In this document: one piece after another, positions 16,206 to 32,468 of the stretch | Layout: each line of letters begins with the position of its first letter | Position numbering within the stretch: position 1 is the stretch's first letter | From: an uncultured archaeon | GTDB taxonomy: Archaea; Aenigmatarchaeota; Aenigmatarchaeia; GW2011-AR5; JAHLMP01 | NCBI GenBank assembly: GCA_964492465.1 | Contig: CAZBKL010000002.1 | Location: forward strand, 1 to 35,446 | Direction of reading: 5' to 3' | Length of the DNA: 35,446 nucleotides | Notes under the pieces: generated by a model | Databases searched by the model: none | Seen by the model: only the letters and a program-made list of their open reading frames with translations | What the model was told of the DNA's origin: nothing | Position numbers and translations under genes: made by a program

Positions 16206-17114
16206 TTATTCGGTTTTGCCGAATACCTCCTGCTCAGGGAAGACCTCCATACCTTTCTTGGAAGTTATTCTCATGGCAACCACTTTCTTAATGTGCTTTG
16301 CGCCGCGCATCTTCAGTACCTCAATTGCGCTCTCACGAATGTTGCCTGTCCTTTTATTGTAGAGAACTATAACGCCGTCAGCCAAGAATTCCTCAACGCC
16401 TGTCGGGCTAAATACGTCCGGAAACTGTGAAGTTTCAGTGATCAGGAACGATGTTACGCCCAAGCTTTCAAAATACCTGAAAAGGTGCTCTATGTAACTC
16501 CTGTAGCTTTCCCTACCCGAGAATGCTGATGCCACAGCAGTCAGTGAGTCAACAATGATTATATCAGGTGTGAAATTTTTAGGCAACAATATTGGGTTTA
16601 CGTCAATAAGAAGCTCGCCCTGAGACTTTGCCATCATCGCCTCAAGGGTCCTGCCTATGTCGAAAATGCTGAATCTCTTTATAACCAGCCTGCTGCTCAT
16701 ATTGTCTGTTTTCCACCCAAAATCTCTCATATGCTCCCTGAGCCGCTCCTCAGATTCCTCAAAGGTCATGTAAAGGCAGTTCTTACCCTTTTTTACGGCA
16801 TTGAGTATCATTTGCAGGCACATTATGGTCTTACCAGAGCCTGCGCCGCCAGAAATAAGTACAGAAGCTCCTTTTGGAATACCCTTTTCAAAAAGCTTGT
16901 CAAACCCTTCTATGCCCGTGAGAAGGTATTCACGCGGTTTTTCAGTGGCAGAAGCGCTGCTTTTTATTTTTTTCACGTTGTGCGACGATGCCAAAGCCTT
17001 TTCCTTGATATTGCTTTTTTCCCGCCTTTTGGTTCCCTGGCTCTTTTTTTGGGTTTTCTTTGGGTTATTGACAGGGTGCTTCTTCAGCGCCTTTGGCATA
17101 TATGTCATTATCAA
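16206..17114 (-). CDS. KaiC/RadA-like single-domain RecA-superfamily ATPase with a basic N-terminal extension
   Basis: 302 aa. TGIEGFDKLFEKGIPKGASVLISGGAGSGKTIMCLQ (Walker A) and IIIVDSLT (Walker B). The first ~55 aa are K/S-rich. The track start is a TTG; the first ATG is at 17108. Confidence 0.85.
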   Translation of the reverse strand: MIMTYMPKALKKHPVNNPKKTQKKSQGTKRREKSNIKEKALASSHNVKKIKSSASATEKPREYLLTGIEGFDKLFEKGIPKGASVLISGGAGSGKTIMCLQMILNAVKKGKNCLYMTFEESEERLREHMRDFGWKTDNMSSRLVIKRFSIFDIGRTLEAMMAKSQGELLIDVNPILLPKNFTPDIIIVDSLTAVASAFSGRESYRSYIEHLFRYFESLGVTSFLITETSQFPDVFSPTGVEEFLADGVIVLYNKRTGNIRESAIEVLKMRGAKHIKKVVAMRITSKKGMEVFPEQEVFGKTE

Positions 17115-17197
17115 TCTGGGCGTATATAAATCATGCTAAAATTGTGCAATTGTTTAAACATAATGCTTATCAACCCAAAAAGACAATAATTAATTGT

Positions 17198-17722: not shown

Positions 17723-17772
17723 CATTGGGGTATTAAAAAACCTTTATTAACCAGACTGATTATTATTAAATA

Positions 17773-18123
17773 ATGAGCTGTCCGTTATTTGTCGATTTTA
17801 CAAGAGAGTGTATAAAAGAAGTGGAATTCACTCCCACAGACACAACGGAATTCTGTGCAACAGAAAAATATGTTGACTGCCCTTTTTATAGACTATTGAT
17901 AAAAAAAGGGGATGTATGCAAAAATATCGGCAAATGCCCGGCATTCAAGAACTTTCAGGTTGGGGACTTCAACAAGTTTGTGGAAATCTCAAACAGGTTT
18001 TGCACATCTAAAAACCATGTGAGTTGTAAGAGATATATCACCAAAGAGAGCGGGCAGCCTGTGCCAATCAGCCTTCACCCGGACGGGAGCTTTGTTAAGG
18101 AGTGGGAAAACAAGCAGAGCTGA
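17773..18123 (+). CDS. Cys-rich small protein (8 Cys, 116 aa), function unknown
   Basis: MSCPLFVDFTRECIKE...FCATEKYVDCPFY...DVCKNIGKCPAF...RFCTSKNHVSCKRY. Spacings are C-x9-C, C-x7-C, C-x5-C and C-x7-C, which suggests metal or Fe-S binding. Confidence 0.5.
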   Translation: MSCPLFVDFTRECIKEVEFTPTDTTEFCATEKYVDCPFYRLLIKKGDVCKNIGKCPAFKNFQVGDFNKFVEISNRFCTSKNHVSCKRYITKESGQPVPISLHPDGSFVKEWENKQS

Positions 18124-18196
18124 CAATAGAACATACCCTGAAATAGACAGCAAAATGTAGATTTTTCAATGCTAAGCGGAATTCTGTTCTGAAAGC

Positions 18197-18218
18197 ACAT
18201 GTTTATACAAAAACATGT
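18197..18218 (+). promoter_or_regulatory. Inverted repeat ACATGTT-(8 nt)-AACATGT containing the 11-mer ATGTTTATACA, upstream of 18293..18847
   Basis: Read directly. The 11-mer at 18199-18209 is identical to the sense-strand repeat upstream of the giant gene. A TATA-like TTTTTTATATAGG follows near 18235-18247. Confidence 0.45.
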
Positions 18219-18292
18219 TAAATATAACTGTATTTGTTTTTTATATAGGGCACGTTTAATTAAAGTATGGATTTAAACAAAGGCGAGGGGGA

Positions 18293-18847
18293 ATGATTTC
18301 TGATATTCTGCACGAAATAACAACAAACAAGTTTCTGATAATTCTGATGAATGAGAACGAGTACACGAACAAGCTGAAGGAAATAGTTGAATCTGTGGAC
18401 AAGGACAACACCAGAATATGCTATGTATGCCTGAACAAGCCATACAGCTATGTTGTGGAAGACCTGAAATCAAGGGGTGTTGACACAAAAAACTTCTTTT
18501 TCCTGGACATACTGACTTCGCACTATGGAAAGCCGGAGCCTGCTGATAACTGTGTTTTTCTTGAATCCCCGTTAAATCTGGACGAACTCAAGAAGGCTGT
18601 GGATGGCATAGTCAGGGACAGTGGCTGTGAGGTAATACTTTTTGACACATTTTCCACGCTTCTCATATACCACAGGTCTTTCTCATTGATGAAATTCGCC
18701 CATAACATGAAAAGTGAAAAGCTGCAGGAGGAAACAAGGAAGCTCTTTATAGTGCTCAAGGAAGATATGCTTTCTGCAAACGAGGGGGGCTTTGCGAAGG
18801 ACCTTGAGATGTTTGCTGACAAGAATATAGAAATTTCATGCAAATAG
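18293..18847 (+). CDS. P-loop-less RecA/KaiC-fold protein (DUF835-like), paralog 2
   Basis: 184 aa. The Walker A position reads FLIILMNENEYT. VILFDTFSTLLIY is Walker-B-like. It aligns along its full length with 17198..17722. Confidence 0.6.
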   Translation: MISDILHEITTNKFLIILMNENEYTNKLKEIVESVDKDNTRICYVCLNKPYSYVVEDLKSRGVDTKNFFFLDILTSHYGKPEPADNCVFLESPLNLDELKKAVDGIVRDSGCEVILFDTFSTLLIYHRSFSLMKFAHNMKSEKLQEETRKLFIVLKEDMLSANEGGFAKDLEMFADKNIEISCK

Positions 18848-18921: not shown

Positions 18922-19236
18922 ATGGCAGAGTTGTTAAATATAGACTTTAAAATGAAAAAAATTCTGGTCACGCTTGAGCTGTCGGCAGACGAGCACCAGA
19001 ATATAAAGCATCATAGGGAAATGCTGGTTGCGCCGACCAGCTCTTTTACAGATGTGCTGACTACCGGCACTCTCGGAAACAGCAACAGGATAATGCTTCC
19101 GAACAAGATACTTAAAAAAAACGATATTGCCAGGCTCAGGAAAAAGGTTCCCTGCTCTGTTTTAAAAATTAAAAAAGGGAGGTATCTTGTGATTGAGCTG
19201 GAAGGACCAAGCGCTGAGATACCTGAATTTAGATAA
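18922..19236 (+). CDS. AbrB/SpoVT-like small DNA-binding protein (tentative)
   Basis: NSNRIMLPNKILKKNDIARLRKKVPCSVLKIKKGRYLVIELEG resembles the swapped-hairpin AbrB motif (xxIPkeiRkklgi). The start is uncertain: TTG 18907, ATG 18922 or ATG 18952. Confidence 0.4.
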   Translation: MAELLNIDFKMKKILVTLELSADEHQNIKHHREMLVAPTSSFTDVLTTGTLGNSNRIMLPNKILKKNDIARLRKKVPCSVLKIKKGRYLVIELEGPSAEIPEFR

Positions 19237-19267: not shown

Positions 19268-19945
19268 ATGAGGATAACAACAGGTCTTGAGAGATTGGAT
19301 GAGCTGATAGAAGGGGGCTTCCCTGAAAAGACTGCCATTCTGCTATCGGGCGGGCCAGGCGCAGGCAAAACCCTCATGGGCCTTAATTTTCTGATAGAGG
19401 GCGCGAAAAATGGTGAGAAATGCTGCTACCTTTCCCTGACAGAAAGCGAGGAAGAGCTGAAACGCGCTATTGACAGCATAGAATCCCTCAGGGCAGCAAA
19501 CGATTTTCTGGACAAGAATCTCATTCTCAAATGCATGGAGATCGGCGACGAGCTTTGCAATAATGTTGACTATTTCATAAAAACCATATCCACTTACCCG
19601 AAGCTCGACAGGATAGTGGTTGACAACATAAACAAGCTGCTTATATTTGCAGATACCAGAAAAAGCTACCGCATTAACGTGGTAAAATTAATAAAGCACC
19701 TTAAGGAGAAAGCAAACTGCTCCCTGGTTTTATGCGAGACTGAGGGGGATGTAGTGGACACCAAGAACGGGGAAGCATTTGAGTGCGACGGGGTAATTCA
19801 TCTGTCTTTCCTGGAGCTGGAGGAGAAACCTATGCGCACAATAAGAATCCAGAAGCTAAGGTACACAGACTTTGAGCCGCATGTTTCCAGGGAAATAATA
19901 ATCAACAAGAAATGCATCCGTATGGGACCGACCAAAGTAATATGA
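19268..19945 (+). CDS. KaiC/RadA-like single-domain RecA-superfamily ATPase
   Basis: 225 aa. TTGLERLDELIEGGFPEKTAILLSGGPGAGKTLMGLNF (Walker A), RIVVDNINKL (Walker B), and a KaiC-like C-terminus IRIQKLRYTDFE. Confidence 0.85.
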   Translation: MRITTGLERLDELIEGGFPEKTAILLSGGPGAGKTLMGLNFLIEGAKNGEKCCYLSLTESEEELKRAIDSIESLRAANDFLDKNLILKCMEIGDELCNNVDYFIKTISTYPKLDRIVVDNINKLLIFADTRKSYRINVVKLIKHLKEKANCSLVLCETEGDVVDTKNGEAFECDGVIHLSFLELEEKPMRTIRIQKLRYTDFEPHVSREIIINKKCIRMGPTKVI

Positions 19946-20005
19946 CGTGCGGCCGCCGGCAACAAATAAATTTCATTTATATTCTGCCCTTTTCTCTTAA
20001 TAGTT

Positions 20006-21019
20006 ATGAGAATGTCTGAGTCGCTGCGGAGAGGCACAATAGATGCAGTTACGGGGGTAATACTAAATCGGTTTAAAATAAAGAGCAGAAGAAATATGCT
20101 GTTTTTTGAGGACATACTTGCAAATTATGTAAAGACATGCGAACAAAACGGAAAGGGCGTTGAGATCAAGAAAATCAATCAAAAATGGGCCATATTATGC
20201 ATATCCCAGCTTATCCCACCTGTTCTCATAAGAATTCTTCCTGTTTCTATTTTGGCCCAAAGAATAAAGGGCGTATGGATTAATCTTGGTCTCGTTGAGG
20301 ATTTCAAAGTCGAAAAAAACGAAGATATAATAACCATCGTGACGAAAAATGAGTTCGTAACCAGGATTGTAAAAAACAATGTCTACATGTCGGGGGCATA
20401 TGAAGGTATCATAAATGAGGTTTTTGGGCTCGGTGCAATATGCATAGAAATTTCCCAAGACAAGAATATTAGTAAATACGTCTTCAAATTATCGGGTTCT
20501 CCTCCTGTTGTCAGGGGAAAGTATAAAAAAACTTACGATGCGCTGAACTCTTTTAAGTTTTTCGGGGGTTTTGGGCTCAAAGATGCGCTAAAATCCGGAA
20601 TTTTTCAATTAAGGAGTGATAATAGAATTTATTTCAGGGGAAAGTCCATAATTCCGATTGAAAATACGGTTTTTCATATATTCAGCAACCAAGGAATATT
20701 TTTAGAGGAGGTGCCAAAAATATCATTCGATTATTTCAGTAAATTGATAGAAATGGGCTCTTCAAACGAGCAAAAATTATCATTGCTTAAAAAACTGCTT
20801 CAGGCAATGGGCTGGGGTTCTATTAAGATGTCATTAAACGGACATAAAAATATTGCTATGGAGATTGCAAACCCACCATATGGATTGCAGACGGAACCCG
20901 ATAATTGGAGATTTTTGTCAATGGTTATTTTGGGATATTTCTGGTTATTAGATAATAGATTTGGAATTGATAATATTTATGAGAAACGCAATACCTTATT
21001 TATTTCATATGGCTGCTGA
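20006..21019 (+). CDS. Hypothetical protein with two V4R-like (4-vinyl-reductase / small-molecule-binding) halves (tentative)
   Basis: 337 aa. ITIVTKNEFVTRIVKNNVYMSGAYEGIINEVFGLGAICIEISQDKNISKYVFKL and LLQAMGWGSIKMSLNGHKNIAMEIANPPYG...LSMVILGYFWLL both resemble the V4R pattern, but they lack its usual Cys residues. Confidence 0.5.
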   Translation: MRMSESLRRGTIDAVTGVILNRFKIKSRRNMLFFEDILANYVKTCEQNGKGVEIKKINQKWAILCISQLIPPVLIRILPVSILAQRIKGVWINLGLVEDFKVEKNEDIITIVTKNEFVTRIVKNNVYMSGAYEGIINEVFGLGAICIEISQDKNISKYVFKLSGSPPVVRGKYKKTYDALNSFKFFGGFGLKDALKSGIFQLRSDNRIYFRGKSIIPIENTVFHIFSNQGIFLEEVPKISFDYFSKLIEMGSSNEQKLSLLKKLLQAMGWGSIKMSLNGHKNIAMEIANPPYGLQTEPDNWRFLSMVILGYFWLLDNRFGIDNIYEKRNTLFISYGC

Positions 21020-22042
21020 ACAAATATAATCAATTTCATTTCCTTCAGTTCTTCTCGCAAAGCAACCGGAAAGACATGTTTTAAATTTGCAGTATTTACA
21101 CTGGTCTGAAAATGTCAATTTTTCCTTATGCTCATTCAGCCTCTTTGAGTGGGTATTAATAAGTTTTCCATCTATCTGCAGGATATTATACATGGGTGTT
21201 CTGTCCATAGCACAGAAATAGACATCACCTTTGACTGATATCGTTGTGTAAAGACCAGCCAGCGCCACGCAATAACCCCCAGTTACGCTGAGGGCGGTCT
21301 GGAAATCGAGCGGATAGAGCGGGTCGCCAGATTCCACATTTACAGCTCCTGTCTCCTCTGCAAATCTTGTCAGCTTTTTGAGGGTCTCGATATAATCAGT
21401 CGGCAAAATGCTCATTTGCTCCTTTGCCCGCCCGGCGGGGGTCATGTCCCAAACACGGCACCGCTCCACTCCCAGCGAGCGGGCGAAATTGAATATTTCA
21501 AAAATTTCGCCCTCGTTTTCCTTTGTGAGAACAGTTTGTGATGTGCAAACGATGCCGGCGTCCTGTGCATTCTTCATGGCTTGCACAGACTTTTCAAAGG
21601 AGCCTTCGCGCCCTCTTATCTGGTCGTGCTTCCCCGGCTCTATGCTGTCTATGTTAATCTGGACCTGCGAAAGGCCGATTTCCTTCATCTCCTGCGCAAG
21701 CTCTCTTGTAAGCAGCCAACCGTTTGTATTCATGTGCACTATAAAACCGCGGTCGCTCGCCTCTTTTACAGCTTCCCTTATGTACGGATGCACAAGCGGC
21801 TCCCCGCCTGAAAAAGTCACCTGCATGACCCCTCCGCTTTTCAGTGTGTCAAGAATTTTTTTAACATTGTCCAGGCTCATGTGCTCGCCATTCTGGGTTG
21901 AGCTTGCATAGCACCATTTGCAGTTCAGGTTGCATGCTTCTGTAATCTCGAGCACGACCCATGACAGCGACCTGTTCCTGTCAAAATTCCTGAATTTCTC
22001 CCCCGCGTCCGTATGCTTCCAGCCGAATGTCACCACGCACAT
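21005..22042 (-). CDS. Radical SAM enzyme with a C-terminal SPASM/twitch-type auxiliary cluster domain
   Basis: 345 aa. LEITEACNLNCKWCY (CxxxCxxC), FSGGEPL, NTNG, and a C-terminal CKYCKFKTCLSGC. Confidence 0.85.
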   Translation of the reverse strand: MCVVTFGWKHTDAGEKFRNFDRNRSLSWVVLEITEACNLNCKWCYASSTQNGEHMSLDNVKKILDTLKSGGVMQVTFSGGEPLVHPYIREAVKEASDRGFIVHMNTNGWLLTRELAQEMKEIGLSQVQINIDSIEPGKHDQIRGREGSFEKSVQAMKNAQDAGIVCTSQTVLTKENEGEIFEIFNFARSLGVERCRVWDMTPAGRAKEQMSILPTDYIETLKKLTRFAEETGAVNVESGDPLYPLDFQTALSVTGGYCVALAGLYTTISVKGDVYFCAMDRTPMYNILQIDGKLINTHSKRLNEHKEKLTFSDQCKYCKFKTCLSGCFARRTEGNEIDYICSAAI

Positions 22043-22069
22043 CCCAAATAACCCGCAAATACGCTTATC

Positions 22070-22849
22070 TTACAGCAAAAACAGCCACAAATCAAGAAAA
22101 GCAAAAGACATCATGCCAAAACTATGCGCAAAGCCAAAATTGTTTCTGATAAGCTCAATAAGCACTATAAAATTGCATACGAGGATTATGCATAACCTGC
22201 TGAAGTCAAATGCTGCGAGCATACCTGTCAGAAAAATCAGGGCATAAATCATTTTTTTAATTTTGGCTGGCCCGAAAATCACCGGCAGGGTATTTATGCC
22301 CGCATCTTTGTCGCCCTCATAATCCCTCAAATCCGACAAAATGCTTCCTGCGAGGATGAACAAATAAAACTCAGTATAATAAAACAAAGTCCCTGCATCA
22401 ATATAGCCGTATCCCACAAGAAACAGCTGCGATATCAAAAAAGCTGTGTACAAATTTTTTATCAAAGGATGTTTTTTAATTCTGAAATGAGAGTAGGCGA
22501 TACCAGTGACAATAAACGTGAGTATGAAAAAAGCTGAATAGAAAGTGAGCGAAAACGAAAGCATGATGCTGGTAAGTGCGCAGCATGAGACAACTGCCAA
22601 ACCGAGTTTTTTATTCAAAACAAGCCTGTTCAGACTACCCCTGTTTTTCAGGTCCTCCTCTTTGTCCGTTATATTGTTGTATGAGTAAACAGCTGCGCAT
22701 GCAAAAAAGGAGCATGCCAGCACGAAAGCCGCAGAAATGCCGTGCGCTGACAGCAGTATTCCCGCAAGAGCCAGGAGAGAGGCTGAGATGCATATCCTAA
22801 CCCTGATAAAATTCAGGAATTCCATGACCATTTCTGCAACCAGGACCAT
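22070..22849 (-). CDS. UbiA-superfamily prenyltransferase, paralog 2
   Basis: 259 aa, about 8 TM helices. First Asp-rich motif NNITDKEEDL, second motif DLRDYEGDKDAGINTLP. Confidence 0.75.
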   Translation of the reverse strand: MVLVAEMVMEFLNFIRVRICISASLLALAGILLSAHGISAAFVLACSFFACAAVYSYNNITDKEEDLKNRGSLNRLVLNKKLGLAVVSCCALTSIMLSFSLTFYSAFFILTFIVTGIAYSHFRIKKHPLIKNLYTAFLISQLFLVGYGYIDAGTLFYYTEFYLFILAGSILSDLRDYEGDKDAGINTLPVIFGPAKIKKMIYALIFLTGMLAAFDFSRLCIILVCNFIVLIELIRNNFGFAHSFGMMSFAFLDLWLFLL

Positions 22850-23656
22850 TCATAAACCACTCATAACATAAATATATGGCGTGAGAAATTCCACAAGCAC
22901 AATCCTTCCGCGAACTTTCCTGGTTATTGTCCTGTTATGAATTTTTTTCAGGTTCAGTATTTTTGCAGAAAGGTTGATTACCCACGGGACTGCCATTGCA
23001 GGCGAATATATCAACCCGCCAAATGAAACCAGCGAAACCGCAGCTGCTGTTATGCAAATCATCCATGCCATTTTCAATTTGTTCGCAAGAAAGAGGTTTG
23101 TATCATCCTTTTTGTCAGTAGAATCCTTTTGGCATCCGATGTACAGGTATTGAGACATGCAAAAAACCGTTAGAGAAATTATGGGCAGGCTCATACTCTC
23201 CATAAAAAAATAATTCAGCGAAATAATTGTTACAAGCCAGGTGGTGGTCGCGAGCAGATAACACTTGATATGATACTTCTTAAGCCGTACCCTTTTGTTG
23301 GAGTAGGCAAAAAGCAAAACGGCATAATAAATTCCTGCGGCTAGCAGAACATTGCTGAATGAAGAAAGAATTAACAGGCCGAATAACAGGGATAAAAATG
23401 AGAGATTCCTCATTCCTTTTGGGGTCATAAATTTATTTACAGACAGCTTGTCATGCCTGGCATTCCTTACATCTTCATGATAATCACAGAAGTCATTGTA
23501 GATGTCGCCGAACAGGTGGACCAGAAAAAAGCCAGTGGCAATTAGGAGCAGGCTGGCACTTATATTTGAAGTCAGTGCGCCGTACATCAATATAAATCCA
23601 AACGTGAGTCCCATCCCTGGACGGACCCTTTTATATATTAAATATGGAAGTTTCAA
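22850..23656 (-). CDS. UbiA-superfamily prenyltransferase, paralog 1 (divergent)
   Basis: 268 aa, polytopic. YNDFCDYHEDVRN (NDxxDxxxD) and a second acidic patch QKDSTDKKDD. The track start is a TTG overlapping the upstream stop; ATG 23614 is an alternative. Confidence 0.7.
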   Translation of the reverse strand: MKLPYLIYKRVRPGMGLTFGFILMYGALTSNISASLLLIATGFFLVHLFGDIYNDFCDYHEDVRNARHDKLSVNKFMTPKGMRNLSFLSLLFGLLILSSFSNVLLAAGIYYAVLLFAYSNKRVRLKKYHIKCYLLATTTWLVTIISLNYFFMESMSLPIISLTVFCMSQYLYIGCQKDSTDKKDDTNLFLANKLKMAWMICITAAAVSLVSFGGLIYSPAMAVPWVINLSAKILNLKKIHNRTITRKVRGRIVLVEFLTPYIYVMSGL

Positions 23657-24783
23657 ATCACCATCCCCTGCTTATGCATACTGCTGCATAATCGCAACAC
23701 CTCTTCCTCGGAGAAAGCTCTCTTCTGCTGCTCTGACTCGCTCTTTATATGCTTCAGGAAGCCATCCAAGCTGTTCTCTGATAAGTGCACGTCAGTCTTT
23801 TCCAGTACATGCTTCAGGGCATTTTTTCCACTGTGCTTGCCGAACCTGAACTTTCGCCTGCATCCTATAAGTTCTGGTTCAAATGGCTCGAAGGTCAAAG
23901 GATGCTTTAATACAGCATCTGAATGTATGCCAGACTCATGAGAGAATATATTGCTTCCGATAATGGGCTTGTGTGGGTGTATCCTTACGCCAGAATATTT
24001 CTCAACGAGGTCGCATATTTCCTTTATTAATCCGTATCTGACATTCATTTCCATGTTTTCGAGGCATTTTAGAGCGACGCAAACTTCCTCTATTGGCGCA
24101 TTGCCTGCGCGTTCCCCTATTCCTGTAAAAGTTCCAGAAAACGCATCAGCCCCGGCTTTAATGCCTGAAATGGTATTGGCAGTTGCCATGGAAAAATCAT
24201 TATGAACGTGCATGCCGATTCTGCATCTGGTCTCTTTCTTGATGCTGGAAACAAATCCCGCAACTTCCGAAGGCCTAAGGTGCCCTACTGTGTCAGCGAT
24301 GTAAAAAATATCTATGGAATCTTCAATGCTCTTCATGAACTTCAGGAGATATGTATAATCTGCTCTTGTTGAGTCCATGCCGGCAAAGCTTATTTTCAGT
24401 CCAAGCCTGTTGGCGTATTTCACTGACTCTATTGCCCTTCTGAGGTTTGTTCTCCTGTCGTTTCCGAATTTTGGGCCGAGAAAAATGTCAGAGACTGGTG
24501 CAAAAAGGGTTATTTTTTTAATACCAAGGCTCTTAACCTGATTGATATCATCCTTTCTCATACGGCAGGTTGCAGAAATCTTGTCATGATATCTTTCTGC
24601 CAGCTCTTTTGCCAAGCGTGCCTCTGAATCAGAAACAGCAGGCATTATGTCAATCTCATCAACGCCAAATTCAACGAATTTTTCAGCCAACTCAATCTTT
24701 TCCTCGCTCGTGAACACTATGTCAGGCATCTGTTCACCGTCGCGCAAAGTCGTGTCGTGTATGTATATTTTTGTCAGGGGCAT
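23653..24783 (-). CDS. Homocitrate/2-isopropylmalate/citramalate synthase family enzyme (HMGL-like DRE-TIM, no LeuA regulatory domain)
   Basis: 376 aa. IHDTTLRDGEQMP, HVHNDFSMATANTISGIKAGA and GIGERAGNAPIEEV are present. Confidence 0.85.
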   Translation of the reverse strand: MPLTKIYIHDTTLRDGEQMPDIVFTSEEKIELAEKFVEFGVDEIDIMPAVSDSEARLAKELAERYHDKISATCRMRKDDINQVKSLGIKKITLFAPVSDIFLGPKFGNDRRTNLRRAIESVKYANRLGLKISFAGMDSTRADYTYLLKFMKSIEDSIDIFYIADTVGHLRPSEVAGFVSSIKKETRCRIGMHVHNDFSMATANTISGIKAGADAFSGTFTGIGERAGNAPIEEVCVALKCLENMEMNVRYGLIKEICDLVEKYSGVRIHPHKPIIGSNIFSHESGIHSDAVLKHPLTFEPFEPELIGCRRKFRFGKHSGKNALKHVLEKTDVHLSENSLDGFLKHIKSESEQQKRAFSEEEVLRLCSSMHKQGMVI

Positions 24784-24993
24784 GAAATCCGCTTTTGTTT
24801 AAATGTATATATATTTAATAATAATCTTATACATATAATGTATTTATATATATAATAAAATAACAAATATAATAAATTTTTATTACTAGTTATGAATTAA
24901 TAGTTATGCTATAACATTGAACTGATGGGTGTGATTAGAAGGGTACCCTAAAAGATAACAACCTTTTTAAGTAACCGGAATAAGAAAATAATA

Positions 24994-25362
24994 ATGAAAA
25001 AGAAGCTTATTATGATTGTTGACGACGAAGAGAACATCCGTGAGTTTCTTACTGTCATTCTGGAAAAGGAAAATTTTGATGTGGTAACTGCTTCTGACGG
25101 GCAAGACTGCCTTAATAAGCTTAAGACCATAAAGCCAGACCTGATACTTCTTGATATGATGATGCCCGTGATGTCTGGGAGGGAGGTTGCTGAGAAAATA
25201 AGGAAGAGCCCTGATACAAAAAACCTCAAGATAGCATTTGTCACAGTTGCGCGATTTTCTGAGCTTGGAAAAGACACGCTTTCCAAACTGAATGTTTTGG
25301 ATTACATAACAAAGCCTTTTGACAACGAGAAACTTATAGAAAGGGTGAAGAAGCTGGCTTAG
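24994..25362 (+). CDS. Stand-alone CheY-like response regulator receiver
   Basis: 122 aa. IMIVDDEENI, LILLDMMMPVMSG (phospho-Asp context), and KIAFVTV with a downstream K. Confidence 0.9.
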   Translation: MKKKLIMIVDDEENIREFLTVILEKENFDVVTASDGQDCLNKLKTIKPDLILLDMMMPVMSGREVAEKIRKSPDTKNLKIAFVTVARFSELGKDTLSKLNVLDYITKPFDNEKLIERVKKLA

Positions 25363-25444: not shown

Positions 25445-27703
25445 TTAATCATTTTTTCTTGGATTTTTAATAGGTATCCTGAAGCTGAACTCGCTCCCCT
25501 TTCCAAGTTCGCTCTTAAACCATATCTCACCGCTCATGGCTTTTACATATTCTTTCGAGAGAGCAAGCCCAAGCCCTGTGCCGCCAGCTTTCCTTGTGTA
25601 TGACGAGTCAACCTGAAAGAACCTTTCAAAGAGCCTTTTCTGGTCTTTTTCTGCTATCCCTATTCCCGTGTCCTTAACGCTAAAAATGACAAAGCCATTT
25701 TCTACGTGCACTTTCATAGTTATGGTCCCCTTTGGTGTATATTTTACAGCATTGTTGATGAGATTGAGCAGGACTTCTATAAGCCTGTCTTTGTCAGTGA
25801 AAATTTTGGGCAGATCCTTTTCTATATCCTGTTCCAGTTCCATATTCTTCTCCTTTGCAAGCATAGCAGCTTCTTTCATCACATCTTCCATAAGCATGTT
25901 AAGATCGGTTTCTTCTTCGTTAAGCTTGAATGTGCCCAGATCTATTCTCGAGAGGTCCAGTATGTCTGTGACGAGTTTTGCAAGCCTGTTGGTTTCCTTG
26001 TCCACTATTTTCAGGTACTTGCCCCTTTTCTCATCATTTTTTATTATGTCTTTGTCTTGCAGGAGCTGCGAAAAGCCATGGATAGAAGTAAGCGGTGTCT
26101 TGAGCTCATGGGCGGCGACTGATATAAATTCATCTTTTTTCTTGTCCATCTCCTTCAGCTTTTCAAGATTAATCTTGAGTTCTCCGTGCGTTTTTATAAG
26201 CTCTTTGTTTGCCTCATCCGAATCTTCCATCATGTTGAGAATCGCAGTCTGTATGTCATTCAGTTCTTTTACCTTTGATTCCAGTTCTGCTGTCCGCTCA
26301 GCAACCTGCTTTTCAAGGGTTTTGCTGTATTCTTCAAGCTTTTTCCTAGATTCTTTCAGATCTGTAGTCATCTCGCTGAAAGAGGATGCAAGCTGACCTA
26401 TTTCATTGCTTGATTTTATATCGGGTTTTATATCAAAATTGCCTCTGGATATTTCCTTGATGTTTTCTGTCAATTTTTGAATAGGCTTGACCATACGGTT
26501 AGTGTACAGAACACCGAGAAGCCATGCCACCATGATAATAGCCAAGCCCGTGGGCAAAATGTAAAGGTAAATCATCCTCTGTTCAGACTCCTCTACTTTT
26601 TTTTGCATATCACTGACAGCCTTCAGTACAACCTCCTTTTCCACGACAATGCCAAGGCTGAACCCTGTGCTTTTCAGGGGTGCATATGCAACGTAGAGTT
26701 CTTTATTGTCCAGGCTCATGTTCTGAAAACCGGAAAGACCGCTTTTCATTTTGTTTATGACGGGACCGAATTCATTTGTGATATTGCTGAGATTGGTGCG
26801 CGACTCATTTGCACTGCGAATTCTGCCAAACATATCTTTGTATGCCTGTTCCGGAAGCGCGATAGAATATCTTTCTTTGTCTATAAGGAATGCGTAAGAA
26901 TGTTCTATAGGATTATATTCTTCGATGTTTTTTATTATGGCTTTCAGAGTTACATCAATGCCCAACACACCATAAAATCCTTTTTTAGTATAAATTGGCG
27001 CTGATGTAGTTATCATGAGCCCCTGCCCTGCAGGATCGTCATACACGGGCGTCCATACAACCGTTTTATTGGGGTTATTCTCAGGATTGGCAATTGCGAC
27101 AAAGACCTCTTCGATAAATTTTTCGTCCGGGGGCGCTATATTTCCAAGACCGATGTTGGGGTAGTACCGTGCATAGTATTCTGACTTATTTACAATGCCC
27201 ACAATCCAGATTGCAACAGCATTTGGCTCGTTTTGAAGCGACATGGGAAATACGTTGTCAAGATATGCGCTTAGCTCCGCGCCTTTTTTCAGGTCATCGG
27301 TGATATCAATATGATTTGGTATGAATAACGAAGAGGTTTCGTTCATGCCGTTAAGGTGTTGTCCATGCTCGCCAACAAAAACATGTTCATCAAATTTCCA
27401 ATAATTTTCTATTGCAAATGCGTCAGGATTATCAAACACATTTTTTGCATATGCCGCTACACTACTCGCATCCTTCCATATATTGTCAAAGACCATATCA
27501 TTTTTGTCAGCCGCCTGTTGTGTAAGCTGCAGCAGGAAATTCTCTGACTGGGAACTCAAGACAGAAGAAGTAATCTGCCTAGCTTCGTATCCCGTATTTG
27601 TGATCGAAACGGTGCCTATATATGCAGTGATGCCTATTGACACTGCAATAAGAATCAGTAGAAAAGCTATCATTTCTGTTTTAATGCTTTGCTTAATCTT
27701 CAT
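25445..27703 (-). CDS. Sensor histidine kinase: TM - dCache - TM - HAMP - coiled coil - HisKA - HATPase_c
   Basis: 752 aa. dCache-like LMITTSAPIYTKKGFYGVLGIDVTL, HAMP NRMVKPIQKLTENIKEISRGNFD, H-box FISVAAHELKTPLTSI, N box LLNLINNAVKYT, G boxes VKDTGIGI and GGTGLGLA. Confidence 0.92.
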   Translation of the reverse strand: MKIKQSIKTEMIAFLLILIAVSIGITAYIGTVSITNTGYEARQITSSVLSSQSENFLLQLTQQAADKNDMVFDNIWKDASSVAAYAKNVFDNPDAFAIENYWKFDEHVFVGEHGQHLNGMNETSSLFIPNHIDITDDLKKGAELSAYLDNVFPMSLQNEPNAVAIWIVGIVNKSEYYARYYPNIGLGNIAPPDEKFIEEVFVAIANPENNPNKTVVWTPVYDDPAGQGLMITTSAPIYTKKGFYGVLGIDVTLKAIIKNIEEYNPIEHSYAFLIDKERYSIALPEQAYKDMFGRIRSANESRTNLSNITNEFGPVINKMKSGLSGFQNMSLDNKELYVAYAPLKSTGFSLGIVVEKEVVLKAVSDMQKKVEESEQRMIYLYILPTGLAIIMVAWLLGVLYTNRMVKPIQKLTENIKEISRGNFDIKPDIKSSNEIGQLASSFSEMTTDLKESRKKLEEYSKTLEKQVAERTAELESKVKELNDIQTAILNMMEDSDEANKELIKTHGELKINLEKLKEMDKKKDEFISVAAHELKTPLTSIHGFSQLLQDKDIIKNDEKRGKYLKIVDKETNRLAKLVTDILDLSRIDLGTFKLNEEETDLNMLMEDVMKEAAMLAKEKNMELEQDIEKDLPKIFTDKDRLIEVLLNLINNAVKYTPKGTITMKVHVENGFVIFSVKDTGIGIAEKDQKRLFERFFQVDSSYTRKAGGTGLGLALSKEYVKAMSGEIWFKSELGKGSEFSFRIPIKNPRKND

Positions 27704-32442: not shown

Positions 32443-32468
32443 TTTGGTTAATAAAAGCAATTTAGAAA

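What the first reader, a model, noticed from the sequence alone, without database searches (positions are those of the whole stretch)
21005..24783. Tightly coupled operon of unknown product: homocitrate-synthase-like enzyme, two UbiA prenyltransferases and a radical SAM/SPASM enzyme
Four minus-strand genes have essentially no spacers: a 4-nt overlap at 23653-23656, stop and start abutting at 22849/22850, and a 27-nt gap before 22042. Gene 1 has the DRE-TIM acyl-CoA:2-oxoacid condensing motifs (LRDGEQ, HxHND, GERAGN). Genes 2 and 3 are short (about 260 aa) divergent UbiA-family paralogs with Asp-rich motifs (NDFCDYHED; NNITDKEED plus DYEGDKD). Gene 4 has CxxxCxxC plus a C-terminal CxxC-x4-C-x3-C auxiliary-cluster motif. 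I know of no described pathway that combines a Claisen-condensing 2-alkylmalate-type synthase, two membrane prenyltransferases and a SPASM radical enzyme. The layout suggests synthesis and radical modification of a prenylated carboxylic-acid head group, giving an unusual lipid, quinone-like molecule or cofactor. That is inference only.
Basis: partly seen in the sequence, partly recalled or inferred. Interest (0 to 1): 0.7.

Follow-up and report, generated by a model that had tools for sequence, protein, structure and literature searches.

The report
Swappable prenyl-lipid cassette wired to KaiC
The four-gene operon is real, but it is part of a larger undescribed gene neighbourhood in uncultured archaea, where a swappable set of isoprenoid-lipid enzymes always travels with a new lipid-pocket-type protein next to KaiC-type signalling genes, which suggests a strain-specific lipid molecule and its matching binding protein.

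Summary
Four intact minus-strand genes sit at the stated coordinates: an HCS/IPMS-like condensing enzyme, two unrelated UbiA prenyltransferases and a radical SAM/SPASM enzyme. The junctions are a TTGA overlap, an abutting TGA-ATG and a 27-nt gap.

None of the four reaches any curated orthologue cutoff.

The operon is not the functional unit:
- **Invariant partners:** UbiA2 and a convergent 337-aa protein of a new family (unk337, a tandem Bet3/V4R/H-NOX-like fold), followed by a KaiC-like ATPase and a 104-aa protein.
- **Optional genes:** the HCS-like gene is present in 23 of 30 loci and the radical SAM gene in 10 of 30.
- **Variable slot:** the radical SAM gene shares its position with UbiA3, CruF-like, cis- or trans-prenyl-diphosphate synthase-like or UbiE-type methyltransferase genes.
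- **Swapped block:** unk337, the slot gene and UbiA2 stay about 35–46% identical even where the flanking KaiC, HCS and small genes are 70–93% identical. One breakpoint lies exactly at the start of unk337.

Best reading: a strain-variable prenyl-lipid cassette with a matched hydrophobic-ligand-binding protein, plugged into KaiC and two-component signalling. The product and the signalling role are inferred, not shown.

The parts
23653..24783 (-). HCS/IPMS-like DRE-TIM Claisen-condensing enzyme (376 aa, no LeuA regulatory domain). It belongs to the conserved 'frame' of the locus.
   Evidence: Pfam HMGL-like 198.6 bits plus HCS_D2 77 bits. Best NCBIfam scores are 353 bits (cutoff 517, IPMS subfamily) and 346 bits (cutoff 463, NifV). 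Best PDB match is Sulfolobus HCS 6ktq, E 1.8e-60. T72, S132, A134 and M136 align with SpHCS H103, R163, S165 and E167. Present in 23 of 30 loci. 72% identical to the L005 orthologue.
22850..23656 (-). UbiA1, an orphan UbiA-superfamily membrane prenyltransferase (268 aa, TTG start overlapping the HCS stop).
   Evidence: Pfam UbiA 48.6 bits. No NCBIfam model matches and there is no PDB sequence match. Motifs YNDYxDxxED and QKDSTDxxD are conserved in nearly all of 17 orthologues. Present in 12 of 30 loci.
22070..22849 (-). UbiA2, a DGGGP-synthase-like UbiA prenyltransferase (259 aa). It is the one enzyme present in essentially every locus and is part of the swapped cassette.
   Evidence: Pfam UbiA 77 bits. 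Best NCBIfam score is PRK12884 at 62 bits against a cutoff of 269. The profile's best PDB match is M. jannaschii DGGGPS 6m31, E 1.2e-18. Only 18 relatives were found among 5.8e9 proteins. Present in 29 of 30 loci. Identity stays 32-38% where KaiC is 80-90%.
21005..22042 (-). Radical SAM/SPASM enzyme (345 aa). It occupies the variable tailoring slot.
   Evidence: Pfam Radical_SAM 117 bits. Best NCBIfam score is NirJ2 at 160 bits against a cutoff of 500. PDB matches are SkfB, BlsE and the tetraether synthase Tes. CxxxCxxC at residue 37 and a full SPASM cysteine set. Present in 10 of 30 loci. Only 43% identical to L005, although the flanking genes are 61-76%.
20006..21019 (+). unk337, a new protein family with two tandem Bet3/V4R/H-NOX/BcsD-like domains. 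It is the proposed binding protein for the cassette's lipid product and is always convergent on the biosynthetic genes.
   Evidence: No Pfam or NCBIfam hit. 87 homologues of about 336 aa, all annotated as hypothetical. 250 representatives among 1.84e9 proteins. AF2 pLDDT 89.5, pTM 0.90. Foldseek finds BcsD, TPC6/Bet3, H-NOX and YslB, each covering one half, with prob 1.0 and E about 1e-3. Found beside UbiA2 in 37 of 39 loci.
19268..19945 (+). KaiC225, a single-domain KaiC/RecA-type ATPase (Walker A GGPGAGKT). Part of the conserved frame.
   Evidence: Pfam KaiC 122.4 bits. Lies upstream of unk337 in 38 of 41 loci. 71% identical to L005.
18922..19236 (+). small109/104, a small conserved protein with an invariant LTTGKLGNSNRIMLPxK core. 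It may be an AbrB/MazE/MraZ-type DNA binder.
   Evidence: The database gene call is 104 aa. Lies upstream of KaiC225 in 27 of 29 loci. PF04014 is hit weakly by 6 of 12 members, best E 0.029. MraZ is the top PDB profile hit, E about 0.9, on the same motif. The AF2 model has pLDDT 76 but no Foldseek neighbour.
24784..24993 (.). AT-rich divergent intergenic region between the biosynthetic operon and the response-regulator gene. It is a probable promoter region and holds no credible peptide ORF.
   Evidence: Sequence read; ORF list.
24994..25362 (+). Stand-alone receiver-domain response regulator, transcribed divergently from the HCS-like gene.
   Evidence: Pfam Response_reg 94.8 bits. An RR lies next to HCS or UbiA2 in most loci. 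76% identical to L005.
25445..27703 (-). Membrane histidine kinase (dCache/PDC sensor, HAMP, HisKA, HATPase_c).
   Evidence: Recurs beside the cluster in L001, L005, L009, L012, L014, L019, L020 and others.
18293..18847 (+). DUF835-type inactivated-KaiC-like protein (184 aa).
   Evidence: PF05763, E 9.9e-5. Orthologues lie beside HCS or RR in L005, L009, L012, L014, L019 and L020. DUF835 is described as an iKaiC domain in PMC5847659.
17093..17722 (+). DUF7504/DUF835 KaiC-like protein (209 aa).
   Evidence: Recurs in L001, L005, L014, L017 and L037.
16206..17114 (-). Second KaiC-like ATPase (302 aa).
   Evidence: Pfam KaiC 175.9 bits. Recurs in L001, L005, L014, L020, L037, L051 and L055.

Best explanation
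The four genes are the enzyme arm of a larger archaeal locus built from a conserved frame and a swappable cassette.

**Frame.** A histidine kinase, response regulator(s), inactivated-KaiC proteins, the HCS/IPMS-like condensing enzyme, a KaiC-like ATPase and a 104-aa protein that may bind DNA.

**Cassette.** UbiA2 (always), often UbiA1, one tailoring gene and unk337. In this window the tailoring gene is the radical SAM/SPASM enzyme. Elsewhere it is a third UbiA, a CruF-like hydratase-type membrane protein, a cis- or trans-prenyl-diphosphate synthase-like protein, or a UbiE-type methyltransferase. unk337 is a cytosolic protein with two Bet3/V4R/H-NOX-like domains that bind hydrophobic ligands.

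**Proposed mechanism.**
1. The condensing enzyme joins acetyl-CoA to a 2-oxoacid that is not 2-oxoglutarate, giving a 2-alkylmalate-type hydroxy-acid. In many loci a neighbouring class-I aminotransferase could supply the 2-oxoacid.
2. The UbiA enzyme or enzymes attach isoprenoid chains in the membrane.
3. The slot enzyme tailors the chain. In this window that would be radical C-H chemistry on the prenyl moiety.
4. unk337 binds the resulting lineage-specific prenyl lipid, as a sensor or carrier, and couples it to the KaiC-like ATPase, the small protein and the two-component genes.

**Shown:** gene identities, synteny, cassette swapping, the fold of unk337 and intact catalytic motifs.
**Inferred:** the substrate and product, that unk337 binds the product, and any signalling output.
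For: **Conserved synteny.** Across about 60 non-redundant loci at 35-55% protein identity, UbiA2 lies beside unk337 in 37 of 39, KaiC225 is upstream in 38 of 41 and the small protein in 27 of 29.

**Isoprenoid chemistry.**
- Every variable slot gene is a prenyl-lipid enzyme: UppS PF01255 at 139-147 bits, CruF-like PF04240 up to 53.6 bits, UbiE/COQ5 methyltransferases at 50-73 bits, a weak polyprenyl-synthetase match, a third UbiA, or the rSAM/SPASM.
- In L003 and L006 the cluster abuts the archaeal mevalonate pathway.
- UbiA2's nearest solved relative is DGGGP synthase.

**Not housekeeping.** All curated cutoffs are missed. HCS residues H103 and R163 are absent in 28 of 28 orthologues.

**unk337.** Confident model (pLDDT 89.5). 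Each half matches the Bet3/TPC6, H-NOX, YslB and BcsD folds. Relatives of this fold class bind phenols or haem (PMC5847659).

**Cassette behaviour.**
- For locus pairs with KaiC225 80-90% identical, HCS is 75% and the small protein 71%, but UbiA2 is 35% (32-38) and unk337 46% (40-60).
- L022 and L033 are 90-96% identical in DNA across KaiC225, dropping to 52-63% exactly at the unk337 start, and they carry different downstream genes.
- The same frame-versus-cassette contrast appears in three independent pairs.
- Among unk337's correlations the highest is with UbiA2 (Mantel r 0.53, p 0.001), while UbiA2 does not track KaiC225 (r 0.11, not significant).
- In the closest full pair, L003/L006, unk337 is the most conserved gene at 91%, so it is not simply fast-evolving.

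**Enzymes look active.** Catalytic motifs are intact in nearly all orthologues (the one gap is the SPASM pattern in L043).
Against: - No product, substrate or ligand is known. All function is inferred from families and context.
- The fold match of unk337 is weak in E-value (about 1e-3; TM 0.5-0.6 per domain). No member hits V4R, HNOB or Bet3 sequence models. Its invariant Cys, His, Glu and Arg residues could mean it is an enzyme rather than a receptor.
- The DNA-binding assignment of the small protein is inconclusive.
- The HCS-like gene is missing from about a quarter of loci. 8 of 28 copies, including this window's, lack an active-centre Glu, so the hydroxy-acid head group may not be essential, or the enzyme may do something else.
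- The aminotransferase is absent from this window.
- Flat identity near 40% could partly reflect saturation in membrane proteins.
- The locus pairs are not phylogenetically independent, and many contigs are short metagenome fragments.
Confidence: 0.5

Rival explanations
1. Variable structural or surface lipid. The cassette makes a lineage-specific membrane lipid, lipid anchor or polyprenyl carrier rather than a signal. unk337 acts as a cytosolic lipid chaperone or transfer protein with a Bet3-like acyl pocket. The KaiC and two-component genes only regulate expression. Diversification would be driven by viruses or, for DPANN symbionts, by host interaction.
For: UbiA2 is closest to DGGGP synthase. 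UppS-type cis-prenyltransferases, which normally make carrier lipids, occur in the slot. The rSAM also resembles lipid-modifying Tes in its radical SAM core. Hypervariable cassettes are typical of surface-structure loci. The cassette swapping fits this reading as well as it fits signalling.
Against: This reading does not explain why a KaiC ATPase and the small protein are glued to unk337 in about 93% of loci. It also does not explain why the N-terminal 40 residues of unk337 stay conserved with the frame. UbiA2 scores far below the DGGGPS cutoffs (62 against 269-353 bits). The family is very rare (18 word-indexed relatives), which is unusual for a core membrane-lipid enzyme.
Confidence: 0.25
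2. Prenylquinone- or redox-cofactor-type pathway. The UbiA enzymes prenylate an aromatic or cyclic head group built from the condensing enzyme's product. UbiE-type methylation or radical SAM tailoring follows, as in menaquinone or ubiquinone biosynthesis. unk337 would be a carrier, like the V4R protein BchJ.
For: UbiE/COQ5-family methyltransferases occupy the slot in L042, L055 and L059. UbiA3 is weakly MenA/ChlG-like. UbiA plus a methyltransferase is the classic quinone pairing.
Against: No ring-forming enzymes (chorismate, futalosine or polyketide type) appear in any locus. UbiA2's best matches are O-prenylating DGGGPS rather than MenA or UbiA. An essential respiratory cofactor would not be expected to vary as a cassette between near-identical strains.
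Confidence: 0.1
3. Undescribed anti-virus defence or conflict system. A hypervariable cassette next to P-loop ATPases would act as an immunity module, with the rSAM making an antiviral small molecule as viperins do.
For: The cassette varies sharply between close relatives. The rSAM core hits PADLOC pVip models at 96.8-98 bits. KaiC/RecA-type ATPases occur in some defence systems.
Against: No core protein (unk337, UbiA1, UbiA2, HCS-like, small protein) hits any of 5027 PADLOC models. The pVip hit is generic radical-SAM-core similarity, lower than the 160 bits to NirJ2. The protein has a full SPASM domain, which to my knowledge viperins lack. There are no nucleases, toxins or mobile-element genes in the neighbourhood. 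The flanks are housekeeping genes.
Confidence: 0.05
4. C50-carotenoid-like pigment pathway. UbiA would act as a lycopene-elongase-type enzyme with a CruF-like hydratase, as in haloarchaeal bacterioruberin synthesis. unk337 would bind the chromophore, possibly as a light sensor feeding KaiC.
For: UbiA is adjacent to a CruF-like PF04240 gene in L017, L019 and L025, with further CruF-like BLAST matches in L028-L030. The LyeJ(UbiA)-CruF-CrtD cluster is known in Halobacteria (PMC9258230). KaiC is a clock-type ATPase.
Against: CruF-like genes occur in only a minority of loci and not in this window. No phytoene synthase or desaturase or CrtD-type gene is in any locus. The reading gives no role to the HCS-like enzyme or the rSAM.
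Confidence: 0.05
5. Chance adjacency of ordinary housekeeping genes (AksA/LeuA, DGGGP synthase, haem-type rSAM), or a peptide (RiPP) pathway using the SPASM enzyme.
For: Each family has well-known housekeeping members. SPASM enzymes often modify peptides. The top NCBIfam names for the rSAM are NirJ2, AhbD and peptide maturases.
Against: Order and orientation are conserved in about 60 loci. All equivalog cutoffs are missed. The 2-oxoglutarate-binding residues are absent. No ORF for a precursor peptide exists, and the gene junctions leave no room for one. The radical SAM core starts at residue 30, leaving no room for an N-terminal RRE domain. The rSAM is optional.
Confidence: 0.03

Closest known systems
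ComQXPA quorum-sensing locus of Bacillus (polymorphic pherotype cassette)
   Same: An isoprenyl-transferring enzyme and the signal-recognition part of the receptor are highly polymorphic between close strains, while the downstream regulator is conserved (PMC4008528). Here UbiA2, the slot enzyme and the body of unk337 are swapped, while KaiC225, the small protein, RR and HCS are conserved.
   Different: There is no precursor peptide. The prenyltransferase is a membrane UbiA rather than ComQ. The putative receptor is a soluble tandem Bet3/V4R-like protein, not a membrane histidine kinase. The output would run through a KaiC-like ATPase. The host is archaeal. The resemblance is one of evolutionary logic only, and no homology is claimed.
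Archaeal ether-lipid step catalysed by DGGGP synthase (UbiA family; PDB 6m31)
   Same: UbiA2's best structural-sequence relative (E 1.2e-18) and best NCBIfam models are DGGGPS-type prenyltransferases. The Asp-rich motifs are intact.
   Different: Scores are 43.1-62.1 bits against cutoffs of 269-353. The family is tiny and confined to this cluster. It is partnered with a Claisen-condensing enzyme rather than GGGP synthase, and it varies as a cassette between close strains.
Homocitrate, isopropylmalate, citramalate and methylthioalkylmalate synthases (DRE-TIM Claisen condensing enzymes)
   Same: Same two-domain architecture. The metal and 2-oxoacid C1/C2 ligands (R14, D15, HxH, T165, E283/H287) are conserved. 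In many loci a class-I aminotransferase sits nearby. This matches the aminotransferase-then-condensation logic of glucosinolate chain elongation (PMC8490860).
   Different: The residues that hold the distal carboxylate of 2-oxoglutarate in HCS are never present (0 of 28). 8 of 28 copies, including the window's, replace an active-centre Glu (ScHCS Glu155, PMC8276798) with Met, Val or Ala. There is no LeuA regulatory domain, and no isomerase or dehydrogenase partners are in the locus.
Haloarchaeal bacterioruberin genes lyeJ (UbiA) - cruF - crtD
   Same: A UbiA prenyltransferase lies next to a PF04240 CruF-like membrane protein in several related loci. The haloarchaeal cluster is described in PMC9258230.
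   Different: There is no CrtD or desaturase and no carotenoid backbone genes. The CruF-like gene is only one of six slot alternatives and is absent from this window.
KaiC-like ATPase signalling neighbourhoods of archaea, with iKaiC/DUF835, receiver domains and V4R/H-NOX-like output domains
   Same: KaiC-like ATPase, DUF835/iKaiC proteins, stand-alone receivers and a V4R/H-NOX-like fold all co-occur. DUF835 as iKaiC, and MetOD1 as an HNOB/V4R-like domain, are described in PMC5847659.
   Different: I found no report of a biosynthetic prenyl-lipid operon embedded in such a hub. unk337 matches no existing V4R, HNOB or MetOD model.

Membership tests
Homocitrate synthase (NifV/AksA/LysS type) | DRE-TIM barrel plus HCS_D2 subdomain with metal and 2-oxoacid ligands (RDGEQ, HxH, GERAGN, HESGIH) | tested here: met
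   Pfam 198.6 and 77 bits. Motifs are conserved in 14 of 14, then in 28 orthologues.
Homocitrate synthase (NifV/AksA/LysS type) | Residues binding the C5 carboxylate of 2-oxoglutarate (SpHCS His103, Arg163, Ser165; their roles are from my recollection of the SpHCS and TtHCS structures) | tested here: not met
   The window has T72, S132 and A134 at these positions (alignment to 3ivs). 0 of 28 orthologues have the His or the Arg.
Homocitrate synthase (NifV/AksA/LysS type) | Curated orthologue score (NCBIfam TIGR02660 nifV cutoff 462.9; TIGR02146 cutoff 413.55) | tested here: not met
   346.1 and 273.7 bits.
Homocitrate synthase / IPMS (shared) | Active-centre Glu of the x-E-D motif (ScHCS Glu155 = SpHCS Glu167; the aligned Glu in MAM synthase 6E1J is probably the substrate-contacting E233, by my count of the alignment) | tested here: not met
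   The window has Met136. 20 of 28 orthologues keep Glu, and 8 have Met, Val or Ala. Glu155 is listed in the ScHCS active centre in PMC8276798, and E233 contacts substrate in PMC8490860.
2-Isopropylmalate synthase (LeuA) | C-terminal LeuA-dimer regulatory domain and equivalog score | tested here: not met
   Only HMGL-like and HCS_D2 are found in 376 aa. Best score is 353.5 bits against a cutoff of 517.
UbiA prenyltransferase superfamily | Polytopic membrane protein with two Asp-rich motifs (NDxxDxxxD-like and DxxxD-like) | tested here: met
   PF01040 at 48.6 bits (UbiA1) and 77 bits (UbiA2), above the cutoff of 34.2. Motifs are conserved in nearly all of 17 and 30 orthologues.
DGGGP synthase | Equivalog-level similarity to archaeal DGGGPS models | tested here: not met
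   UbiA2 scores 43.1-62.1 bits against cutoffs of 269-353. UbiA1 has no hit. 6m31 is only the nearest solved relative.
DGGGP synthase | It is the genome's membrane-lipid enzyme (sole copy, acting with GGGP synthase) | not testable with these tools
   Only 7-10 kb around each locus could be read, so whole-genome gene content was not available.
Radical SAM / SPASM | CxxxCxxC cluster motif plus the 7-Cys SPASM auxiliary-cluster pattern | tested here: met
   CNLNCKWC at residue 37, C-x13-G-x4-C, CKYCKFKTCLSGC and a final Cys. CxxxCxxC is present in 15 of 15 orthologues and the full pattern in 14 of 15. PF04055 scores 117 bits.
SPASM peptide maturases (RiPP) | Precursor peptide gene nearby and an RRE/PqqD-like recognition domain | tested here: not met
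   No credible small ORF exists. The junctions are overlapping or abutting. The radical SAM core begins at residue 30, and only Radical_SAM and Fer4_12 are found.
Haem-pathway rSAMs NirJ/AhbC/AhbD | Equivalog score | tested here: not met
   160, 120 and 144.5 bits against cutoffs of 500-650.
Prokaryotic viperin (pVip) | Viperin-type rSAM without SPASM; NCBIfam cutoff 180 | tested here: not met
   82.8 bits and PADLOC 98 bits over the core only. A full SPASM domain is present.
V4R / H-NOX / Bet3 (TRAPP) fold class | Fold similarity of each domain | tested here: met
   Foldseek prob 1.0, E 1.5e-3 to 3e-2, target TM 0.5-0.61 to BcsD, TPC6/Bet3, H-NOX and YslB, each about 140 aligned columns, which is half the protein, on a pLDDT 89.5 model. 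The match is weak and should be treated as fold-class only.
V4R / H-NOX / Bet3 (TRAPP) fold class | Match to the family sequence models (PF02830, PF07700, PF04051) | tested here: not met
   None of 38 members hits them at E up to 1. The profile finds only its own family among 1.84e9 proteins.
V4R / H-NOX / Bet3 (TRAPP) fold class | A ligand (haem, phenolic, acyl chain) bound in the pocket | not testable with these tools
   This needs biochemistry.
KaiC-like ATPase | RecA/KaiC P-loop domain with Walker A and B | tested here: met
   PF06745 at 122.4 bits. GGPGAGKT and hhhhD (IVVDN) are visible in the translation.
AbrB/SpoVT/MazE/MraZ looped-hinge DNA binders | Sequence or fold match to the swapped-hairpin domain | tested here: inconclusive
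   PF04014 is hit by 6 of 12 members, but the best E is 0.029. MraZ is the top PDB hit at E about 0.9. The monomer AF2 model has no Foldseek neighbour. The fold is an intertwined dimer, so a monomer model is a poor probe.
ComQXPA-type pherotype locus (analogy only) | Signal-synthesis gene and receptor-recognition region are polymorphic while the flanking regulators are conserved | tested here: met
   compared with PMC4008528.
ComQXPA-type pherotype locus (analogy only) | ComX-type precursor peptide and ComP-type membrane kinase receptor | tested here: not met
   There is no peptide ORF. The variable partner is the soluble unk337, while the HK is part of the conserved frame (66% identity between the window and L005).

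The most novel reading that the evidence does not exclude
These uncultured DPANN-type and Altiarchaeota archaea carry a self-contained lipid 'pheromone' system. A swappable cassette would encode both the enzymes for a strain-specific prenylated small lipid and its matched cytosolic receptor, unk337, a new tandem Bet3/V4R-like family. The receptor would dock through a conserved N-terminal segment onto a KaiC-like ATPase and a small DNA-binding protein. That would make it an archaeal, non-peptide counterpart of bacterial pherotype quorum-sensing loci. It would also be the first case in which a KaiC-type hub reads a dedicated, locally synthesised ligand.
Probability: 0.2. Interest if true: 0.85.

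Novelty: new variant of a known kind. Interest (0 to 1): 0.68.

Why it matters
Each enzyme belongs to a known superfamily, but the combination is not described in the literature I could search. The most constant partner, unk337, has no Pfam model and no annotation in 87+ database entries. Three things follow if the reading holds.

1. **A defined biosynthetic locus in poorly understood archaea.** The lipid and signalling biology of Aenigmatarchaeota/DPANN-like and Altiarchaeota archaea is almost unknown. DPANN archaea are usually assumed to be biosynthetically poor.
2. **A testable input for archaeal KaiC-like ATPases.** They have been proposed as signalling hubs, but their inputs are largely unknown. 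A ligand-binding protein welded to a KaiC gene, next to the genes that make a candidate ligand, can be tested directly.
3. **A sign of specificity evolution.** The sharp frame-versus-cassette pattern (KaiC 93% against unk337 50% in adjacent genes) points to specificity evolving in communication, surface variation or conflict. That has rarely been documented for lipid pathways or for archaea.

It also flags an HCS/IPMS-like clade with a non-canonical active site for enzymology.

Tried and rejected
- **Precursor peptide.** The 24784-24993 spacer holds only low-complexity AT-rich ORFs of 23-51 aa. The 27-nt gap is too short and the other junctions overlap or abut. Rejected.
- **RNA elements.** No tRNA and no Rfam family in the window.
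- **Housekeeping orthologues.** NCBIfam cutoffs are missed for all four genes. Rejected.
- **Defence system.** PADLOC gives only a generic rSAM-core hit to pVip. Not supported.
- **V4R/HNOB/Bet3 membership of unk337 by sequence.** No hits in 38 members, none in PDB by sequence, and the exhaustive profile search recovers only the family itself.
- **small109 as AbrB-like.** Pfam on the window copy finds nothing. Per-member scans are weak, the PDB profile hit to MraZ is at E about 0.9, and the AF2 model finds no Foldseek neighbour. Left as inconclusive.
- **Organism of the window.** Exact-sequence look-ups gave no record or name. Its affiliation is inferred only from relatives.
- **Literature.** No paper combines UbiA, homocitrate synthase, radical SAM and archaea, or KaiC, arCOG and prenyltransferase. 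The Makarova 2017 KaiC-hub paper and Kumar 2019 MAM synthase paper were not held. PMC9860122 had no text on catalytic residues.
- **Bacterial promoter and terminator scan.** Uninformative for an archaeon.

Full report
**1. The observation**

They are an HCS/IPMS-like protein (23653-24783, 376 aa), UbiA1 (22850-23656, 268 aa, TTG start), UbiA2 (22070-22849, 259 aa) and a radical SAM protein (21005-22042, 345 aa).

The junctions are as described. The UbiA1 TTG start overlaps the HCS TGA stop in 'TTGA'. The UbiA1 stop is followed directly by the UbiA2 ATG. A 27-nt gap precedes the rSAM start.

Pfam confirms HMGL-like plus HCS_D2, UbiA twice, and Radical_SAM. The rSAM has CxxxCxxC at residue 37 and a complete 7-Cys SPASM pattern.

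The rest of the window is archaeal housekeeping: aEF-2, aIF5A, aCPSF-type beta-CASP nuclease, RtcA, ScpB and FEN-1. It has no tRNA or Rfam hit.

**2. Not housekeeping orthologues**

Against NCBIfam, none of the four reaches any curated cutoff:
- The condensing enzyme scores 353 bits (cutoff 517, IPMS subfamily), 346 (cutoff 463, NifV) and 345 (cutoff 485, LEU1_arch).
- UbiA2 scores at most 62 bits (cutoff 269).
- UbiA1 matches no model.
- The rSAM scores at most 160 bits (cutoff 500, NirJ2).

The nearest solved structures are Sulfolobus homocitrate synthase (6ktq), M. jannaschii DGGGP synthase for UbiA2 (6m31, E 1.2e-18), and SkfB, BlsE and Tes for the rSAM core. UbiA1 has no match. The two UbiA proteins show no significant similarity to each other, so they are distinct UbiA clades, not recent paralogues.

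**3. The condensing enzyme is not a homocitrate synthase in the strict sense**

The alignment to S. pombe HCS (3ivs, chain index minus 5) puts window T72, S132, A134 and M136 opposite His103, Arg163, Ser165 and Glu167. In 28 cluster-linked orthologues the Arg position is never Arg (mostly Asp) and the His position is never His. The catalytic-metal and C1/C2 ligands are invariant.

The Glu position is listed as part of the active centre in ScHCS (Glu155, PMC8276798). The aligned Glu in MAM synthase 6E1J is probably the substrate-contacting E233 of PMC8490860, by my count of the alignment. This position is Glu in 20 of 28 orthologues, but Met in the window and L005, and Val or Ala in six others.

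The role I assign to His103, Arg163 and Ser165 (binding the distal carboxylate) comes from my recollection of the SpHCS and TtHCS structures. The enzyme therefore probably uses a 2-oxoacid other than 2-oxoglutarate. The window's variant may have altered chemistry.

**4. The conserved unit is larger and different**

UbiA2 has only 18 word-indexed relatives among 5.8 billion proteins. Contexts came from encoding contigs, a GTDB-genome scan (Aenigmatarchaeota MAGs plus one Altiarchaeota MAG) and a metagenome scan with the unk337 profile (61 loci). All give the same picture:

[HK, RR, DUF835/iKaiC] <-> HCS > (UbiA1) > UbiA2 > [slot] > < unk337 (aminotransferase) < KaiC225 < small protein

Counts over non-redundant loci:

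| Gene | Present / loci with enough sequence |
|---|---|
| UbiA2 beside unk337 | 37 / 39 |
| UbiA2 | 29 / 30 |
| HCS-like | 23 / 30 |
| UbiA1 | 12 / 30 |
| rSAM | 10 / 30 |
| KaiC225 upstream of unk337 | 38 / 41 |
| Small protein | 27 / 29 |
| Class-I aminotransferase | 8 / 29 (absent from this window) |

**5. The variable slot is all isoprenoid chemistry**

The position held by the rSAM in this window is occupied elsewhere by:
- a third UbiA, weakly MenA/ChlG-like;
- a CruF-like PF04240 membrane protein in L019, L025 and L017;
- a UppS-family cis-prenyltransferase in L030 and L073 at 139-147 bits, and in L022;
- a weak trans-polyprenyl-synthetase-like protein in L007, with a BLAST relative in L060;
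- UbiE/COQ5-type SAM methyltransferases in L042, L055 and L059.

In L003 and L006 the cluster directly follows the archaeal mevalonate pathway genes. This supports a prenyl-lipid product. It also makes the SPASM enzyme a tailoring enzyme acting on a small molecule rather than a peptide maturase. There is no peptide ORF and no room for an N-terminal RRE domain.

**6. unk337**

The convergent 337-aa gene (20006-21019) has no Pfam, NCBIfam or PDB sequence hit. It belongs to a compact family of uniform length. That family has 87 clusters at 90% identity, all annotated as hypothetical. It has 250 representatives among 1.84 billion proteins, all about 336 aa or fragments.

An AlphaFold2 model is confident (pLDDT 89.5, pTM 0.90) and shows two similar alpha/beta halves. 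Foldseek matches each half to BcsD/CesD, TRAPP Bet3/TPC6, H-NOX and YslB (prob 1.0, E about 1e-3, target TM 0.5-0.6). This is the Bet3/V4R/H-NOX fold class, whose members bind acyl chains, haem or phenolics. The V4R/HNOB relationship and the phenol sensors are noted in PMC5847659.

No member hits the corresponding sequence models. I therefore call it a new family with fold-class resemblance only.

**7. Frame versus cassette**

This was the unexpected result. Against its closest relative L005, the window's genes fall into two groups:

| Group | Identity to L005 |
|---|---|
| Flanking genes | HCS 72%, UbiA1 61%, KaiC225 71%, small protein 75%, RR 76% |
| Central block | UbiA2 45%, rSAM 43%, unk337 44% |

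The central block is no closer to L005 than to the most distant loci.

With the enlarged set, pairs with KaiC225 80-90% identical have HCS at 75% and the small protein at 71%. In the same pairs UbiA2 is 35% (range 32-38) and unk337 46% (40-60). Yet in the closest full pair, L003/L006, unk337 is the most conserved gene at 91%. It is therefore not intrinsically fast-evolving.

L022 and L033 are 90-96% identical in DNA across KaiC225. Identity drops to 52-63% exactly at the start of unk337 and to 33-44% beyond it. Their downstream genes differ: L022 has UppS-like then UbiA2, and L033 has UbiA2 then HCS.

Sliding-window comparisons of three independent pairs repeat the pattern. They also show that the first 40 or so residues of unk337 remain conserved (58-78%) while its body is 22-50%.

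Among unk337's identity correlations the highest is with UbiA2 (Mantel r 0.53, p 0.001). UbiA2 does not track KaiC225 (r 0.11, not significant), whereas KaiC225 tracks the small protein (0.60) and HCS (0.51).

Caveats are non-independent pairs, short contigs and possible saturation in membrane proteins.

I read this as a conserved frame (two-component genes, iKaiC, HCS-like, KaiC225, small protein) into which a cassette (unk337 body, slot gene, UbiA2, partly UbiA1) is exchanged.

**8. The signalling arm**

KaiC225 is a single-domain KaiC/RecA ATPase (122 bits) with an intact Walker A. The window holds three further KaiC or iKaiC (DUF835/DUF7504) genes at 16206-18847, which recur beside the cluster elsewhere. 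DUF835 is described as an inactivated KaiC domain in PMC5847659.

The small protein is called as 104 aa (18922-19236). It has an invariant LTTGKLGNSNRIMLPxK core that resembles the looped-hinge motif of MazE, AbrB and MraZ. The evidence is weak: PF04014 in 6 of 12 members with best E 0.029, MraZ as the top PDB profile hit at E about 0.9, and a monomer model (pLDDT 76) with no structural neighbour. I leave that assignment as inconclusive.

**9. Mechanism proposed**

Shown: the parts, their conservation, the cassette behaviour, intact catalytic motifs and the fold class of unk337.

Inferred:
1. The condensing enzyme makes a 2-alkylmalate-type hydroxy-acid from acetyl-CoA and a 2-oxoacid that is not 2-oxoglutarate. 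The neighbouring aminotransferase would supply the 2-oxoacid where present. This mirrors the aminotransferase-then-MAM-synthase logic of PMC8490860.
2. The UbiA enzymes add isoprenoid chains.
3. The slot enzyme tailors the chain. In this window that would be SPASM radical chemistry on the prenyl chain, by analogy with lipid-modifying rSAMs such as Tes.
4. unk337 binds the lineage-specific product and communicates with KaiC225 and the small protein, perhaps through its conserved N-terminus.

I put about 0.5 on this layered statement. That breaks down to about 0.75 on 'dedicated prenyl-lipid cassette', about 0.5 on 'unk337 binds the product' and about 0.2-0.3 on a true signal-receptor (pherotype-like) role.

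**10. Rivals**

- **Variable structural or surface lipid with unk337 as chaperone (0.25).** It fits the DGGGPS-likeness, the UppS genes and the hypervariability. It does not explain the fixed KaiC and small-protein linkage.
- **Prenylquinone or cofactor route (0.10).** Suggested by the UbiE-type methyltransferases. It lacks ring-forming genes and sits badly with cassette swapping.
- **Defence system (0.05).** Only a generic rSAM-core hit to pVip in PADLOC.
- **C50-carotenoid-like pathway (0.05).** Suggested by UbiA plus CruF-like genes (PMC9258230). It lacks backbone genes and is not represented in this window.
- **Chance adjacency or a RiPP pathway (0.03).** Effectively excluded by synteny, cutoffs and the absence of a peptide gene.

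**11. Comparison with known systems and novelty**

The closest analogue in evolutionary logic is the Bacillus ComQXPA locus. There an isoprenyl transferase, the signal and the sensor part of the receptor are polymorphic while the regulator is conserved (PMC4008528). Here there is no peptide, the enzymes and the receptor are unrelated to the Com proteins, and the output would be a KaiC-type ATPase.

At family level the parts are new, unannotated clades of known superfamilies plus one new family (unk337). My literature searches found no description of the combination. The key KaiC-hub paper could not be read, so prior mention of part of this neighbourhood cannot be excluded.

I rate it a new variant of a known kind: an isoprenoid biosynthetic cluster with cognate regulatory genes. 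There is a 0.2 chance that it is something categorically new, an archaeal lipid pheromone-receptor cassette read by a KaiC hub.

**12. Verdict**

Interest is 0.68.

Noticed in passing
window 31381-32523 (-): A second, unrelated radical SAM gene is the AmmeMemoRadiSam-system enzyme (TIGR04337, 303.9 bits, above the cutoff of 220). I did not look for its AmmeMemo partners.
   Followed up: no
window 11856-16091 (-): A 1411-aa ORF with a Laminin_G_3/ConA-like lectin domain and a weak NPCBM_assoc hit. It is probably a large surface or adhesion protein.
   Followed up: no
window 16206-18847: A run of extra KaiC-type genes: KaiC302, a DUF7504/DUF835 protein of 209 aa, an unannotated 116-aa ORF and a DUF835 protein of 184 aa. 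The same families recur beside the cluster in L005, L014, L037, L055 and others.
   Followed up: partly
window 21001-22000 versus 20001-21000: The rSAM gene is 47% G+C, while the adjacent unk337 gene is 36% and the UbiA genes about 42%. This fits the slot gene having a separate history.
   Followed up: partly
L003 1-6048 and L006 1-6045: In two Aenigmatarchaeota-type loci the cluster lies just downstream of an archaeal mevalonate-pathway block: GHMP kinase, UbiD-like decarboxylase, AcnX large and small subunits, UbiX-like flavoprotein, isopentenyl-phosphate kinase and an FMN-dependent IDI2-like gene.
   Followed up: partly
L017 2979-5514; also L033 and L073: The Altiarchaeota locus has six tandem single-domain response-regulator genes next to the HCS-like gene. 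L033 and L073 have three or four. This expansion of stand-alone receivers is unexplained.
   Followed up: no
L025 7773-8192 (-): A 139-aa ORF just beyond the HCS-like gene has a weak V4R-domain hit (PF02830, E 0.0065). It may be a second small ligand-binding protein in that locus.
   Followed up: no
L007/L008, L065-L067, L069: unk337 appears in two or three consecutive pieces in these loci. The cause could be frameshifts, assembly errors or real pseudogenes. I did not resolve this.
   Followed up: no
window 23653-24783 (-), residue 136: The window's HCS-like protein, and that of L005, has Met where HCS, IPMS and MAM synthases have an active-centre Glu. Six other orthologues have Val or Ala, and 20 keep Glu. 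The loss has occurred in several lineages and does not simply follow rSAM presence.
   Followed up: partly
window 27708-29107 (-): Directly downstream of the histidine kinase lie a 166-aa membrane protein and a 300-aa tandem-PAS protein, with overlapping stops and starts. They probably belong to the same sensory operon.
   Followed up: no
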